From IMG/VR virus record IMGVR_UViG_3300049460_000196, positions 49,104 through 113,103 of that record: a stretch of DNA of 64,000 nt, one strand, 5' to 3'. Source of the DNA: a virus. Under the pieces are notes generated by a model that saw nothing but the letters and a program-made list of their open reading frames with translations, ran no database searches and was not told where the DNA came from. A program made the position numbers and the translations under genes. Shown here piece by piece: positions 5,434-23,273 of the stretch; the first letter of the stretch is position 1, and each line of letters opens with the position of its first letter.

Positions 5434-5436
5434 GTA

Positions 5437-5649
5437 TTAGTCACGTTTGTTTGCCAGTTCGTTCAACTGTTTGCTGAGGTCGGCGTCGGTTTCGGCGGTG
5501 ATCACGCCCAGCTTAACCATGTTGTTCATGGTACCACGATACACTTCAAACTCGCGGTTATCGAACGACTCAACCATCACGTGCTCGCGACCAGTGTCGC
5601 TGTCGAAGGTGTCGTAGTTGTGTTTGATCTGCGCGTTGATGATATACAT
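5437..5649 (-). CDS. hypothetical protein
   Basis: 70 aa, AGGAG RBS. Confidence 0.6.
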   Translation of the reverse strand: MYIINAQIKHNYDTFDSDTGREHVMVESFDNREFEVYRGTMNNMVKLGVITAETDADLSKQLNELANKRD

Positions 5650-5677
5650 GGTCGCTCCTGCATTTGTGTAGAATCAC

Positions 5678-5706
5678 ATTATAGACGCAGATGAACAGAA
5701 AATCAA
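5678..5706 (-). promoter_or_regulatory. sigma70-like early promoter
   Basis: TTGATT-17nt-TATAAT, TGTTCAT in spacer. Confidence 0.75.
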
Positions 5707-5714
5707 GTAATATT

Positions 5715-5985
5715 TGGTGGACCAGAGCGGAATTGAACCGCCACGACGTCGCGAACGTCTTTCCCAGTGCGGAGGACTTGTACTCACCTGAGTAGCCCAG
5801 CGAAGCACCAATACATGATGCTTTGGTGGACTATGGGGACTCGAACCCCCTCTCCCTGGCCCGTAATGATCAGCCTCGTGGGGCTTGTCCCACAATCTCC
5901 GCCATTAGATGTAGCGGTGCTGAATCACGCTTCTGAAGCTACTCGCTTGAAGCCGATCATTACGAGCGACTGTTGCCAGTCACCC
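5715..5985 (-). ncRNA. structured tRNA-like RNA with two T-arm/CCA ends
   Basis: T arm+ACCA at 5715 and 5824, 18-bp upstream helix, GCAA tetraloop hairpin. Confidence 0.65.
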
Positions 5986-5992
5986 AGCTGGT

Positions 5993-6277
5993 TTAATGGT
6001 CTTTGCAGTGACTCAGGTCGCCACGTGATGGCTTTGCACCAGCACGATGTTGTTTCGACCAGTCGTAATCTGCACCCGCGGAGGTAGCACCAGCTTTACC
6101 AACGCTGTTTGGGTTCTCGGATACCATAGTCACGAAACGAATCTTACCCGTTTCTTCACCTTCGCGGCGCAGAGCAGCCTGAAACTCCAGTGGCTCTGCC
6201 AACAGTACGGTATCAAACACGCGGGATTTTGCTTCCAGGCCGTCTTCGTGAACTTCCGACCAATAAATCATAAACAT
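5993..6277 (-). CDS. hypothetical protein
   Basis: 94 aa ORF with RBS. Confidence 0.65.
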   Translation of the reverse strand: MFMIYWSEVHEDGLEAKSRVFDTVLLAEPLEFQAALRREGEETGKIRFVTMVSENPNSVGKAGATSAGADYDWSKQHRAGAKPSRGDLSHCKDH

Positions 6278-6393
6278 TTTACTTCCTCTCTCTTTTCATC
6301 TTTATATTTACAAGAGAGTATATGGTAAAATGGCCACATTTTCAACTGTTATTTCAGATGGGTGGGGAAAGTTGACTTTCCCCAGTTTACGCA

Positions 6394-7405: not shown

Positions 7406-7454
7406 AGTCTTTTATGTGGTAGGGAGAGGGGGACTTGAACCCCCACGCCACTAT

Positions 7455-7539
7455 TGGTACCCTGAGCCGGAATCGAACCGGCACGCCTCACGGCGCTTGA
7501 TTTTGAGTCAAGTGCGTCTACCAGTTCCGCCATCAGGGC
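7455..7539 (-). tRNA. tRNA-Leu(CAA), nested in split tRNA
   Basis: class II cloverleaf, CCA. Confidence 0.92.
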
Positions 7540-7988
7540 TCATTCTGTTTATATTGACTGCGTTTCTTACCAGTAAGAGCTTGAGCAATTTTCGCTCTAT
7601 GTTCGGGAGATTTTGGCTTCCCTGCATTACCCTTACCAGCTTTACGTGCTTGCTCTACACCTCTACTCTGTGAGGCACATGCAGCTTCGTATCCATTCTT
7701 AGCGACATTCTGTTCCCAAAGCGTCATACCCGTATGGTCTACACGATCAATATAATTGTCTTTGTGCGTACCCCAATACAAATGATTGGGGTTACTGCAT
7801 TTTTCATTATTGCAAGCATGACACAACAAAGTTGTGTGAGTTTCGGGTATGGTAGTTCCCAAAGTTGCTGCCAACAATCCGCGAAATTCAACTGATTTGC
7901 CACCACGTTCAACACATGGAAGTTCAAGAGCTAAATGACTACGGCGTTCTTCTCTACTCAGAAGCATATGGTCGATGATATTCATCAT
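7533..7988 (-). CDS. HNH/His-Cys homing endonuclease with NUMOD3-like tail
   Basis: CHACNNEKCSNPNHLYWGTHKDN and KSPEHRAKIAQALTG motifs. Confidence 0.85.
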   Translation of the reverse strand: MMNIIDHMLLSREERRSHLALELPCVERGGKSVEFRGLLAATLGTTIPETHTTLLCHACNNEKCSNPNHLYWGTHKDNYIDRVDHTGMTLWEQNVAKNGYEAACASQSRGVEQARKAGKGNAGKPKSPEHRAKIAQALTGKKRSQYKQNEP

Positions 7989-8049
7989 CTATTTAGTAAA
8001 CACGGCTGCTGTGTCTACCAATTCCACCATCCCCCATAAGCGTATATTT

Positions 8050-17325: not shown

Positions 17326-17402
17326 TGGTGGACAAGACCAGGAATCGAACCCGGCTTCCTCCGCCCTACTTCCAAGGCGACTGATTAGCGGATCACTTGC
17401 CC
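17326..17402 (-). ncRNA. tRNA-like RNA, G3.U70 acceptor, non-canonical anticodon loop
   Basis: GGGCAAG/CTTGTCC-ACCA, T loop TTCGATT. Confidence 0.65.
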
Positions 17403-23202: not shown

Positions 23203-23273
23203 TGGTGGACCGTACGGGACTCGAACCCGTGATAGAGCATTGCAAGTGCCCCGCCAACCCCTGAAGACAGCCC
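23203..23273 (-). tRNA. tRNA-Ala(TGC), reduced D arm
   Basis: G3.U70, loop CT-TGC-AA, CCA. Confidence 0.75.

What the first reader, a model, noticed from the sequence alone, without database searches (positions are those of the whole stretch)
5715..5985. Double-headed, apparently permuted tRNA-like RNA with two G3.U70 CCA ends
Seen, on the minus strand: GGGCCAG-GGAGA-T arm-ATAGTCC-ACCA, a hairpin spacer (AAGCATCA/TGGTGCTT), then GGGCTAC...T arm-CTGGTCC-ACCA. The first 3' strand pairs best with the downstream GGGCTA (permuted, as in two-piece tmRNA), and the last 3' strand pairs fully with the upstream GGGCCAG. Both give G3.U70/A73. An 18-bp helix and a GCAA hairpin lie upstream and compete for GGGC. 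An alternative reading of 5715-5798 is a lone tRNA with a CC-GCA-CT loop. Inference: a two-piece RNA with two acceptor ends.
Basis: partly seen in the sequence, partly recalled or inferred. Interest (0 to 1): 0.75.

Follow-up and report, generated by a model that had tools for sequence, protein, structure and literature searches.

The report
Two-headed alanine tRNA mimic in phage
A giant uncultured soil phage carries a 148-base gene for an RNA made of two cross-paired tRNA "top halves", each with the marks for accepting alanine and neither with an anticodon. I found this rare design in three other wild phages and in no paper, and its job is unknown.

Summary
On the minus strand, 5862-5715 reads: 5' strand a, T arm 1, 3' strand b, ACCA, hairpin spacer, 5' strand b, connector, T arm 2, 3' strand a, ACCA.

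- **Fold.** The cross-paired (nested) fold is about 15 kcal/mol better than two local units. Both heads carry G1-G2-G3.U70, A73 and an encoded CCA.
- **What it is not.** It is not a tRNA, a tmRNA or a YrlA RNA by ARAGORN and Rfam tests. The ARAGORN "permuted tmRNA" tag lies inside the next protein gene.
- **Relatives.** No close relative could be fetched. Pattern scans of IMG/VR found the same nine-part, cross-paired, double-alanine design in three other phage tRNA arrays (113-122 nt). Stem positions 4-7 change in matched pairs and G3.U70/ACCA never changes.
- **How this copy differs.** It is closest to the copy in a 345-kb phage. It has a 21-nt hairpin inserted in the inner loop and a longer connector.

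This scan had already noted two-headed tRNA-like RNAs on other DNA (e1-5820008, e1-6041245).

My best reading is a real tRNA-alanine/tmRNA-end mimic, cut out like a tRNA at 5862 and 5715. Function is unknown.

The parts
5856..5862 (-). Outer 5' acceptor strand a (GGGCCAG). G5862 is the expected RNase P 5' end.
   Evidence: Pairs 7/7 with 5725-5719, including G3.U70. It closes the minimum-energy fold.
5851..5855 (-). Linker 1 (GGAGA), crossing from outer strand a to T arm 1. It contains a GG, as do the corresponding linkers in the three other phage RNAs.
   Evidence: comparison of the four loci.
5835..5850 (-). T arm 1: 4-5 bp stem with the T-loop TTCGAGT. It is one base shorter than canonical at the join with the inner 3' strand.
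5824..5834 (-). Inner 3' acceptor strand b (ATAGTCC) plus ACCA. A5824 would be the second 3' end if the inner head is opened.
   Evidence: Pairs 6/7 with 5798-5792, with G3.U70 and a C7xA66 mismatch. ARAGORN read this junction as a permuted tmRNA-like domain.
5799..5823 (-). Spacer. An 8-bp hairpin (5823-5803) caps the inner head and leaves CCA in a 3x3 internal loop. Relative to the 345-kb-phage copy it is a 21-nt insertion into a 3-nt spacer.
5792..5798 (-). Inner 5' acceptor strand b (GGGCTAC). G5798 is the possible internal RNase P site.
5743..5791 (-). Connector (49 nt). It starts TCAGGTGAGT, like the TCTGGATGAGT of L170. It holds an imperfect hairpin (to about 5763) and a 5-bp hairpin (5759-5745). 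There is no usable anticodon loop.
   Evidence: Rfam gives tRNA-Sec at only 16.9 bits.
5726..5742 (-). T arm 2, canonical (GGCGG / TTCAATT / CCGCT).
5715..5725 (-). Outer 3' acceptor strand a (CTGGTCC) plus ACCA. A5715 is the expected mature 3' end.
   Evidence: All 50-odd tRNA genes of this phage also encode CCA.
5863..5963 (-). Upstream structured domain. A 15-bp helix encloses three hairpins and abuts G5862. It can extend to 18 bp by taking G5862-5860.
   Evidence: z-score -5.3 for 5995-5700. No Rfam match. Role unknown: leader, processing site or separate RNA.
5964..5985 (-). 9-bp hairpin with a GCAA loop, just after the stop codon of the 94-aa ORF.
5678..5706 (-). Sigma-70-like promoter (TTGATT, 17 nt, TATAAT) for the next gene. 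It starts 9 nt after the terminal CCA, so it bounds the RNA gene.
6317..6345 (-). Sigma-70-like promoter upstream of the 94-aa ORF. It is the likely source of the transcript that carries the RNA.
   Evidence: No terminator-like site lies between it and the element.
5993..6277 (-). 94-aa ORF of unknown function upstream. It belongs to a family found inside the tRNA arrays of 36 other IMG/VR phage contigs.
5437..5649 (-). 70-aa ORF downstream. It contains the false 'tag peptide' of ARAGORN's tmRNA* call.
   Evidence: an 87% identical protein exists in Logan assemblies.

Best explanation
5862-5715 (minus strand) is a gene for a small structured RNA of a rare phage class: two tRNA 'top halves' (acceptor stem stacked on a T arm) that are cross-paired.

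**Shown (structure and class)**
- The 5' strand of each head is joined through a linker to the T arm of the other head. The whole forms a four-way junction of two minihelices.
- Both heads carry the alanine identity set (G3.U70, A73) and an encoded CCA.
- There is no anticodon arm and no tag reading frame.

**Inferred (how it is made)**
- It is transcribed with the upstream 94-aa ORF from the promoter at 6345-6317.
- It is released like a tRNA: RNase P (host or the phage's own RNase P RNA) cuts before G5862, and the 3' end is the encoded CCA at 5715.
- RNase P may also cut before G5798. Trimming back to 5824 would then give two pieces held together by the two acceptor stems. I put this at about 40% for this copy.

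**Inferred, weakly (what it does)**
- It acts as a mimic of the acceptor end of tRNA-Ala or tmRNA. It would be chargeable by AlaRS and would occupy or titrate a protein that reads that end: AlaRS, EF-Tu, SmpB, RNase P or the CCA enzyme.
For: 1. **Sequence and fold.** The nested fold is the free minimum, at -62.5 against -47.7 kcal/mol for local pairing. The two cut pieces would still cofold, at -51.4 against -39.2 kcal/mol apart.
2. **The design recurs.** L177:7523-7637, L118:186-298 and L170:816-937, all in phage tRNA arrays, have the same nine parts in the same order.
   - All 8 heads keep G1-C72, G2-C71, G3.U70 and ACCA.
   - Positions 4-7 show 2-4 different standard pair types per column in both cross helices.
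   - Cross pairing (6-7 of 7) beats local pairing (3-6 of 7) in every locus.
3. **Likeness to L170.** This copy aligns with L170 along its length (71% column identity). It shares the C7xA66 mismatch in the inner head and the TC(A/T)GG.TGAGT start of the connector. It differs mainly by a 21-nt hairpin inserted in the spacer.
4. **Gene-like setting.**
   - The next gene's promoter starts 9 nt after the CCA.
   - The stretch is non-coding by Pfam.
   - All tRNA genes of this phage encode CCA.
   - The phage has an RNase P RNA-like gene (RF00010, 48.7 bits, E 2e-15).
5. **Published parallels.**
   - RNase P opens the closed 7-bp acceptor-like stem of M. smegmatis YrlA, and CCA is completed in vivo (PMC4201824).
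   - Mycobacteriophage DS6A encodes little more than a tmRNA tRNA-like domain, and such a molecule inhibits tmRNA, perhaps by titrating SmpB (PMC4131195).
Against: - No RNA evidence exists: the only run that holds the sequence is the DNA source sample.
- No close relative of this locus could be read, so this copy has no covariation of its own.
- Its link to the three other loci rests on shared architecture and a modest pairwise alignment. The covariance model built from L177 scores it 24.4 bits, inside the noise from tandem tRNAs. Homology, as opposed to convergence or chance rearrangement, is therefore not proven.
- Only four loci in 2.9 million IMG/VR contigs fit, so selection is inferred from very few sequences.
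- This copy departs from the compact form: T arm 1 is one base short, the inner stem has a mismatch, and the inner loop carries a hairpin. It could be a decaying copy.
- The same genome shows that homing-endonuclease cassettes break tRNA genes and leave T-arm/CCA fragments.
- The proposed function has no direct support. No partner protein gene is linked, and SmpB is absent from all five records.
Confidence: 0.55

Rival explanations
1. True two-piece RNA. RNase P cuts before both G5862 and G5798, and the spacer is trimmed back to A5824. The mature molecule is a heterodimer of a 39-nt and an 84-nt piece with two free, alanylatable CCA ends.
For: - ACCA and G3.U70 are kept in all four inner heads although the stems have diverged.
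- In this copy CCA is left unpaired in a 3x3 internal loop.
- The two pieces would stay together, cofolding at -51.4 against -39.2 kcal/mol apart.
- Published precedents are M. smegmatis YrlA (PMC4201824) and two-piece tmRNA, including phage ones (PMC9004378).
Against: - The 8-bp hairpin begins directly after CCA, leaving no single-stranded entry for 3' trimming.
- The inner stack is only 10-11 bp with a C.A mismatch, where a canonical substrate has 12 bp.
- A related RNA (L113:10147-10253) seals this arm with a 3-nt loop and has no CCA, so an open inner end is not needed in every relative.
- No ends have been mapped.
Confidence: 0.3
2. Non-functional debris. Two alanine-type tRNA genes were rearranged, by tandem duplication with internal deletion or by a homing-endonuclease 'split and replace' event. 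That left fragments which happen to be cross-complementary.
For: - The same genome has a tRNA-Leu gene split by an endonuclease ORF plus a replacement tRNA, leaving an orphan T-arm/CCA piece at 7444-7417.
- This copy has defects: a short T arm 1 and a mismatch in the inner stem.
- No close relative is on hand to show conservation.
Against: - Cross complementarity of 7/7 and 6/7 is unlikely by chance (0.003 for positions 4-7).
- No endonuclease ORF or ORF remnant lies inside the 148 nt.
- The same ordered design with matched base changes occurs in three unrelated phage contigs.
- Both T-loops and both CCA ends are intact, and the nested fold is strongly favoured.
Confidence: 0.15
3. Cis-acting 'punctuation'. 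The tRNA-shaped structure exists only so that RNase P and tRNA 3' enzymes cut the transcript after the 94-aa ORF. The excised RNA has no function of its own.
For: - It lies in the 3' untranslated part of the ORF94 transcript, with no terminator.
- In 36 other phages the ORF94 homologue is followed directly by ordinary tRNA genes.
- A long helix abuts the RNase P site.
Against: - A single ordinary tRNA or minihelix would suffice for cutting.
- Nothing in a cutting signal requires two cross-paired heads with alanine identity on both.
- In L170 and L177 the RNA sits between tRNA genes, not after an ORF.
Confidence: 0.12
4. Two independent products: a 39-nt minihelix (5862-5824) and an 84-nt aberrant class II-like tRNA (5798-5715, loop CC-GCA-CT), each folding on itself.
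For: - Local pairing of 5/7 and 6/7 is possible.
- The second unit has a long variable-arm-like hairpin and a canonical T arm.
- Rfam aligns it weakly to tRNA-Sec.
- Free minihelix-like units do exist after tRNA genes in other phages (L132, L108).
Against: - The local fold is about 15 kcal/mol worse.
- ARAGORN does not call a tRNA here.
- Rfam scores 16.9 bits against a cut-off of 47, with no match to the tRNA model.
- The loop has C at position 33 and a pyrimidine at position 37.
- The relatives have no anticodon-like arm at all.
Confidence: 0.06
5. A permuted (two-piece) tmRNA gene, as ARAGORN calls it (5435-5914, tag ASLKCIVVP).
For: - ARAGORN's tmRNA* call.
- The order T arm, 3' strand, CCA, spacer, 5' strand is that of permuted tmRNA genes.
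- The relatives give sub-threshold tmRNA matches of 22-27 bits.
Against: - The tag lies inside the 70-aa protein gene, which has an 87% identical homologue.
- There is no short tag frame within the RNA, and no pseudoknot domain.
- RF04321 scores 11.1 bits against a cut-off of 47.
- The 'coding piece' ends after 84 nt in a second tRNA-like 3' end.
Confidence: 0.02

Closest known systems
Two-piece (circularly permuted) tmRNA genes (Rfam RF04321, RF01849-51; Keiler 2000 and Sharkady & Williams 2004 as cited in PMC9004378), including phage-encoded ones
   Same: - The gene order T arm, 3' acceptor strand, CCA, spacer, 5' acceptor strand.
- An alanine-type acceptor with G3.U70.
- A single precursor that could be cut into two base-paired pieces.
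- A GG-containing, stem-less stretch after the 5' strand, like the D-loop analogue.
   Different: - No tag reading frame and no pseudoknots.
- The 'coding piece' is only 84 nt and itself ends in a second T arm, acceptor strand and CCA.
- Model scores are far below threshold (11 bits here; 22-27 bits in the relatives).
tRNA-like-domain-only tmRNA of mycobacteriophage DS6A (PMC4131195)
   Same: A phage-encoded, anticodon-less, alanine-type tRNA-like RNA with no messenger part. Its suggested action is as a competitor for SmpB or tmRNA partners.
   Different: DS6A has one head in the ordinary (non-permuted) order. Here two heads are cross-paired. I did not compare the sequences, because the DS6A sequence was not on hand.
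YrlA Y RNAs, especially M. smegmatis YrlA (Rfam RF02553; PMC4201824)
   Same: - The inner head has the YrlA order: T arm, then an acceptor-like stem closed by a loop, then the 5' side.
- M. smegmatis YrlA is cut by RNase P in that closed 7-bp stem and gains CCA. The result is two pieces that stay together.
   Different: - No Ro60-binding stem or motif, no D arm, and no Rfam match.
- The stem formed by the RNA's own ends is a second acceptor/T-arm head with CCA, not a protein-binding helix.
- It lacks the ACAGCAA 'handle' of this phage's own Y-like RNAs.
tRNA-Ala minihelix substrates of AlaRS (acceptor stem plus T arm with G3.U70; reviewed in PMC9976931)
   Same: Each head is an acceptor/T-arm stack with G3.U70, A73 and CCA. 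From established knowledge, this is the minimal alanine acceptor.
   Different: Those are laboratory constructs with one self-paired helix. Here two heads are encoded naturally and swap strands.
Two-headed tRNA-like phage RNAs noted earlier in this scan (e1-5820008, 111 nt; e1-6041245, 125 nt), plus the three loci found here (L177, L118, L170)
   Same: The nine-part order, cross pairing, alanine marks on both heads, absence of an anticodon, and a position inside phage tRNA arrays.
   Different: - This copy is longer (148 nt).
- It has a 25-nt spacer with a hairpin where the others have 3-4 nt.
- It has a 5-nt first linker where the others have 6-14 nt.
- Its T arm 1 is one base short.
- It follows a protein gene, not a tRNA gene.

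Membership tests
tRNA (RF00005) | Cloverleaf with D arm and a 7-nt anticodon loop (U33, purine 37); recognised by tRNA models | tested here: not met
   ARAGORN lists 54 genes in the window but no tRNA here. Rfam shows no tRNA match at E<=10, only tRNA-Sec at 16.9 bits against a cut-off of 47. The candidate loop is CCGCACU.
tmRNA, one-piece or permuted (RF00023, RF04321, RF01849-51) | Alanine-type acceptor (G3.U70), T arm and CCA | tested here: met
   Both heads have them.
tmRNA, one-piece or permuted (RF00023, RF04321, RF01849-51) | Tag reading frame with a resume codon and a stop inside the RNA | tested here: not met
   ARAGORN's tag lies at about 5555-5526, inside the 70-aa ORF. Reading on from 5798 by eye, I found no short stop-terminated frame within the RNA.
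tmRNA, one-piece or permuted (RF00023, RF04321, RF01849-51) | Score at or above the curated threshold of a tmRNA covariance model | tested here: not met
   RF04321 scores 11.1 bits (E 9.6) against a cut-off of 47. No other tmRNA model was listed.
YrlA / Y RNA (RF02553) | Ro60-binding stem formed by the RNA's two ends, next to a permuted tRNA-like module | tested here: not met
   No RF02553 match at E<=10. The helix formed by the ends is an acceptor stem with CCA. There is no ACAGCAA handle.
YrlA / Y RNA (RF02553) | Permuted order: T arm, loop-closed acceptor-like stem, D arm | tested here: inconclusive
   The T arm and closed acceptor-like stem are present. No convincing D arm follows.
Cross-paired two-headed alanine tRNA-like phage RNAs (unpublished class; defined from L177, L118, L170) | Ordered parts: 5'a, linker, T1, 3'b, ACCA, spacer, 5'b, connector, T2, 3'a, ACCA | tested here: met
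Cross-paired two-headed alanine tRNA-like phage RNAs (unpublished class; defined from L177, L118, L170) | Cross pairing better than local pairing; G1-G2-G3.U70 and A73-CCA on both heads | tested here: met
   Cross pairing gives 7 and 6 pairs, local pairing 5 and 6. The energy gap is about 15 kcal/mol.
Cross-paired two-headed alanine tRNA-like phage RNAs (unpublished class; defined from L177, L118, L170) | Short (3-4 nt) spacer and compact size (113-122 nt) | tested here: not met
   The spacer is 25 nt with a hairpin and the total is 148 nt.
Cross-paired two-headed alanine tRNA-like phage RNAs (unpublished class; defined from L177, L118, L170) | Detectable sequence homology to other members | tested here: inconclusive
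   The L177-based model scores it 24.4 bits, within tandem-tRNA noise, and does not find L170 either. The pairwise alignment to L170 has 71% column identity with shared motifs.
Circularly permuted tRNA genes (Cyanidioschyzon type) | A complete tRNA body with anticodon, encoded 3' half before 5' half | tested here: not met
   The inner unit has only a T arm and an acceptor stem, with no anticodon arm.

The most novel reading that the evidence does not exclude
The RNA matures into a strand-swapped heterodimer of two mini-tRNAs with two free CCA ends, and both are charged with alanine. This bivalent molecule would engage a two-site target at once. Candidate targets are the two active sites of dimeric AlaRS, two SmpB/EF-Tu molecules, or the A- and P-site CCA pockets of the peptidyl-transferase centre. 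That would give the phage a high-avidity way to reprogram or block a host translation or quality-control step.
Probability: 0.12. Interest if true: 0.9.

Novelty: new variant of a known kind. Interest (0 to 1): 0.6.

Why it matters
Known tRNA mimics each carry one tRNA-like module: tmRNA, YrlA, viral tRNA-like structures and mascRNA.

A natural RNA built as two strand-swapped alanine minihelices would be a new way of building such a mimic. If it is processed and charged, it would be the first natural molecule I know of with two aminoacylatable ends.

It also bears on two practical points:
- Giant phages with 50 or more tRNA genes also encode tRNA-shaped RNAs that decode nothing.
- tRNA and tmRNA finders mislabel or miss such genes. 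ARAGORN called this one a permuted tmRNA and missed the three relatives.

The idea is directly testable with RNase P and AlaRS assays on a 150-nt transcript.

Tried and rejected
**Searches for relatives**
- GenBank phages: blastn of 5600-6100, and of the L177 and L170 elements, found no homologue.
- IMG/VR exact 25-mer of the 3' end: none.
- IMG/VR strict pattern for this copy's geometry: none.
- IMG/VR minihelix-geometry pattern: 7 unrelated hits.
- JGI metagenomes, T arm 1 with one-base-short spacing: 49 hits, all ordinary or att-site tRNA-Ala ends, and no model match.
- Flanking proteins: the 215-aa and 70-aa ORFs have no relatives in IMG/VR or JGI. The 94-aa ORF has 36 distant relatives, but ordinary tRNAs follow them.
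- The single-sequence model R1, run over 36 whole contigs, returned only tandem tRNAs.
- Model R2 (L177), run over 100 loci and 50 whole contigs, recovered L118 and a sealed variant (L113). Everything else was tandem-tRNA noise.
- GTDB genomes: the compact-form pattern found only tRNA-Ala genes followed by a duplicated 3' half, mostly in candidate-phyla-radiation bacteria. None was cross-paired.

**Other checks**
- Sequencing runs: no RNA holder is listed, and the only holder is the probable source DNA sample.
- A structure-true four-way alignment could not be made with MAFFT. Pair counts were therefore done by script, not with the count of structure pairs.
- This phage's ACAGCAA handle family: the motif is absent here.
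- Paralogous sequence in the 113-kb record: only T-arm matches.
- The 12-mer ATCATGTATTGG of the spacer recurs twice elsewhere in the genome, but in unrelated coding contexts. I treat this as chance.
- The overlapping ORFs 5674-5895(-) and 5767-6087(+) have no Pfam family.
- SmpB is absent from this record and from the four related records.
- Literature: searches for two-headed or double-headed tRNA-like RNAs found nothing relevant.
Full report
**Setting**

The window is the last 64 kb of a 113-kb IMG/VR virus record, which CheckV rates 27% complete, so the phage is very large. The only sequencing run that holds the sequence is a rhizosphere metagenome, probably the source sample. ARAGORN finds 54 RNA genes, all on the minus strand, and every tRNA gene encodes its CCA.

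The finding lies in a 343-nt gap between a 94-aa ORF (6277-5993) and a 70-aa ORF (5649-5437). Sigma-70-like promoters stand before each ORF, at 6345-6317 and 5706-5678. No terminator-like site lies between them.

Read on the minus strand, the parts are:
- GGGCCAG (5862-5856) and GGAGA.
- A T arm with loop TTCGAGT (5850-5835).
- ATAGTCC and ACCA, ending at 5824.
- A 25-nt spacer with an 8-bp hairpin.
- GGGCTAC (5798-5792) and a 49-nt connector.
- A canonical T arm with loop TTCAATT (5742-5726).
- CTGGTCC and ACCA, ending at 5715.

The first 5' strand pairs 7/7 with the last 3' strand. The second 5' strand pairs 6/7 with the first 3' strand. Both helices have G3.U70 followed by A73-CCA. The local alternatives give 5/7 and 6/7.

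RNAfold chooses the nested, cross-paired fold without constraints, at -62.5 kcal/mol. Forcing local pairing costs about 15 kcal/mol. The two pieces that internal cleavage would produce cofold at -51.4, against -39.2 kcal/mol when apart.

Upstream, a 15-bp helix enclosing three hairpins (5963-5863) abuts G5862. A GCAA hairpin (5985-5964) follows the ORF's stop codon. The whole gap folds far better than shuffled sequence, with a z-score of -5.3.

**What it is not**

- **Not a tRNA.** ARAGORN calls none here. Rfam gives only a tRNA-Sec alignment at 16.9 bits, against a cut-off of 47.
- **Not a tmRNA.** ARAGORN's 'tmRNA*' (5435-5914) recognises the permuted junction. Its tag peptide, however, lies inside the 70-aa protein gene, which has an 87% identical homologue elsewhere. 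The permuted-tmRNA model scores 11.1 bits against a cut-off of 47.
- **Not one of this phage's Y-RNA-like 'handle' RNAs** noted earlier in the scan. The ACAGCAA motif is absent, and RF02553 does not match.
- **Not a known protein gene.** The overlapping ORFs have no Pfam family.

**Search for relatives**

- GenBank phages held nothing.
- IMG/VR and JGI held nothing by exact or geometry-specific patterns.
- The flanking genes have no near relatives there.

Earlier notes of this scan, all unchecked AI notes, mention two-headed tRNA-like RNAs in other phages. Taking that as a lead, I scanned IMG/VR for a compact double-alanine pattern and screened all held loci with an architecture script. Three loci have exactly the design of this element:
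- L177:7523-7637, 115 nt.
- L118:186-298, 113 nt.
- L170:816-937, 122 nt, in a 345-kb phage rated 100% complete.

L170 and L177 lie between called tRNA genes. ARAGORN calls no tRNA in the L118 locus, where an alanine-type CCA end lies just upstream. ARAGORN misses all three elements.

**Comparison of the four loci**

- All eight heads keep G1-C72, G2-C71, G3.U70 and ACCA.
- Positions 4-7 of both cross helices carry two to four different standard pair types per column.
- Cross pairing (6-7 of 7) exceeds local pairing (3-6 of 7) in every locus.

L177 and L118 are clearly homologous (82% column identity; 49 bits with the L177 model). They differ by matched changes in both helices.

This window's copy aligns best with L170. 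They share the C7xA66 mismatch of the inner head and the TC(A/T)GG.TGAGT start of the connector. This copy's 25-nt spacer looks like L170's AAT with a 21-nt hairpin inserted.

The L177 model scores this copy only 24.4 bits, inside the noise made by tandem tRNAs, and it does not detect L170. Membership therefore rests on architecture, not on a significant sequence score.

The relatives give sub-threshold tmRNA matches. L177 scores 27.4 bits to RF00023 through its two ends. L118 and L170 score about 22 bits to the permuted model across the inner junction. This fits two tmRNA-like or tRNA-Ala-like acceptor modules and nothing more.

A further RNA, L113:10147-10253, has the outer alanine head and T arm 1, but seals the inner arm with a 3-nt loop and has no inner CCA.

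The compact pattern found no cross-paired element in 185,579 bacterial and archaeal genomes. GenBank phages gave no blastn homologue.

**How it probably works**

Shown:
- The sequence, the favoured nested fold and the recurrence of the design.
- The alanine marks on both heads.
- The gene-like boundaries.

Inferred:
- The RNA is transcribed with ORF94. RNase P cuts before G5862; the outer head is a canonical 7+5-bp stack with ACCA.
- The phage has its own RNase P RNA-like gene (48.7 bits, E 2e-15).
- The 3' end is the encoded CCA at 5715, nine bases before the next promoter.

The fold is a four-way junction of two coaxial minihelices. The T-arm 3' strands run straight into the acceptor 3' strands, and the two linkers are the exchanging strands.

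From established knowledge, a G3.U70 minihelix with A73-CCA is a substrate of AlaRS (reviewed in PMC9976931). At least the outer head should therefore be chargeable.

**Is the inner head opened?**

This question remains open.

For opening:
- ACCA is kept in all four inner loops despite diverged stems.
- In this copy CCA sits unpaired in a 3x3 internal loop.
- M. smegmatis YrlA shows that RNase P can open a loop-closed 7-bp acceptor-like stem in vivo, after which CCA is completed and both halves stay in one particle (PMC4201824).

Against opening:
- The stable hairpin begins directly after CCA.
- The inner stack is short and mismatched.
- L113 has a sealed inner arm.

I put the two-piece outcome at about 40% for this copy.

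**Function**

Function is a guess: a mimic of the tRNA-Ala or tmRNA acceptor end that occupies a protein reading that end. A published parallel is mycobacteriophage DS6A. Its tmRNA gene is little more than the tRNA-like domain, and such a molecule inhibits tmRNA, perhaps by titrating SmpB (PMC4131195). No SmpB gene is present in any of the five phage records, so any such partner would come from the host.

**Rivals**

- **Debris from tRNA gene rearrangement.** This is a real possibility in this genome. At 8036-7417 a tRNA-Leu gene is split by a His-Me/NUMOD3-like endonuclease ORF plus a replacement tRNA, and an orphan T-arm/CCA piece remains. It does not explain the perfect outer cross helix, the intact motifs, the lack of any ORF remnant, or the recurrence of the design.
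- **A pure transcript-cutting signal.** This would not need two alanine heads.
- **Two separate products.** This is disfavoured by energy and by the tRNA models.
- **tmRNA.** Membership fails on its defining features.

**Novelty**

I found no description of a two-headed or cross-paired tRNA-like RNA in the searchable literature. The scan itself had noted the design twice on other DNA (e1-5820008, e1-6041245).

I therefore class this as a new, expanded variant within the broader known kind of tRNA/tmRNA-end mimics. The evidence is limited to four loci, with no expression data.

Noticed in passing
L113:10147-10253 (+): A 107-nt RNA with an alanine-type outer acceptor (GGGTATA/TATATCC), T arm 1, then a sealed 6-bp hairpin with a 3-nt loop where the CCA-bearing inner head would be. 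Its 3' end reads ACCT, so CCA is not fully encoded. It looks like a one-headed relative of the two-headed design.
   Followed up: partly
L239, L246, L259, L264 and about 20 other genome-contig loci: In many candidate-phyla-radiation genomes (Saccharibacteria, Parcubacteria and others), a tRNA-Ala(TGC) gene is followed after about 10 nt by a near-exact copy of its own 3' part: anticodon-stem 3' strand, T arm, acceptor strand and CCA. The copies are not cross-paired. Origin unknown.
   Followed up: no
L132:6765-6798 (+) and L108:154-196 (+): Self-paired alanine minihelices (5' strand, short linker, T arm, 3' strand, ACCA; 33-43 nt) encoded directly after a tRNA gene in two other phages.
   Followed up: no
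window 17326-17402 (-): A 77-nt alanine-type tRNA-like gene (GGGCAAG...CTTGTCC-ACCA, with G3.U70) that neither ARAGORN nor the Rfam gathering scan calls. This phage has several such alanine-ended oddities: 1635-1865, 5715-5862, 17326-17402 and the 71-nt tRNA-Ala at 23203-23273.
   Followed up: no
L105, L131 and L235 (second RNA after tRNA-Ala): An 80-nt alanine-type RNA (GGGGCAC...GTGTTCC-ACCA) with a T arm but no anticodon arm, directly downstream of a normal tRNA-Ala(TGC). The same sequence occurs in these loci.
   Followed up: no
window 5993-6277 (-) and L002-L037: The 94-aa ORF upstream of the element belongs to a family with no Pfam match. Its 36 IMG/VR homologues (32-44% identity) mostly sit inside phage tRNA arrays, and where tRNAs were called the gene is typically followed within tens of bases by one.
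   Followed up: partly
window 5863-5963 (-): A cloverleaf-shaped but non-tRNA domain: a 15-bp closing helix with three hairpins, touching the RNase P site of the element. No Rfam match. It could be a processing site (the helix is long enough to suggest RNase III) or a separate RNA.
   Followed up: partly
L177:7523-7637 (-): The inner 5' strand is present twice in tandem (GGGATGT then GGGAATGT). The inner 3' strand can pair with either copy, with G3.U70 or all Watson-Crick. RNAfold prefers the second copy.
   Followed up: no
window 7417-8036 (-): A tRNA-Leu gene split by a 151-aa ORF with weak His-Me endonuclease and NUMOD3 matches, plus a complete replacement tRNA-Leu. An orphan T-arm/CCA piece remains at 7444-7417.
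   Followed up: partly
G000:C1:48692-49052 (just before the window): An RNase P RNA-like gene. RF00010 scores 48.7 bits, below the 100-bit threshold, with E 2e-15. None was found in the four related phage records.
   Followed up: partly
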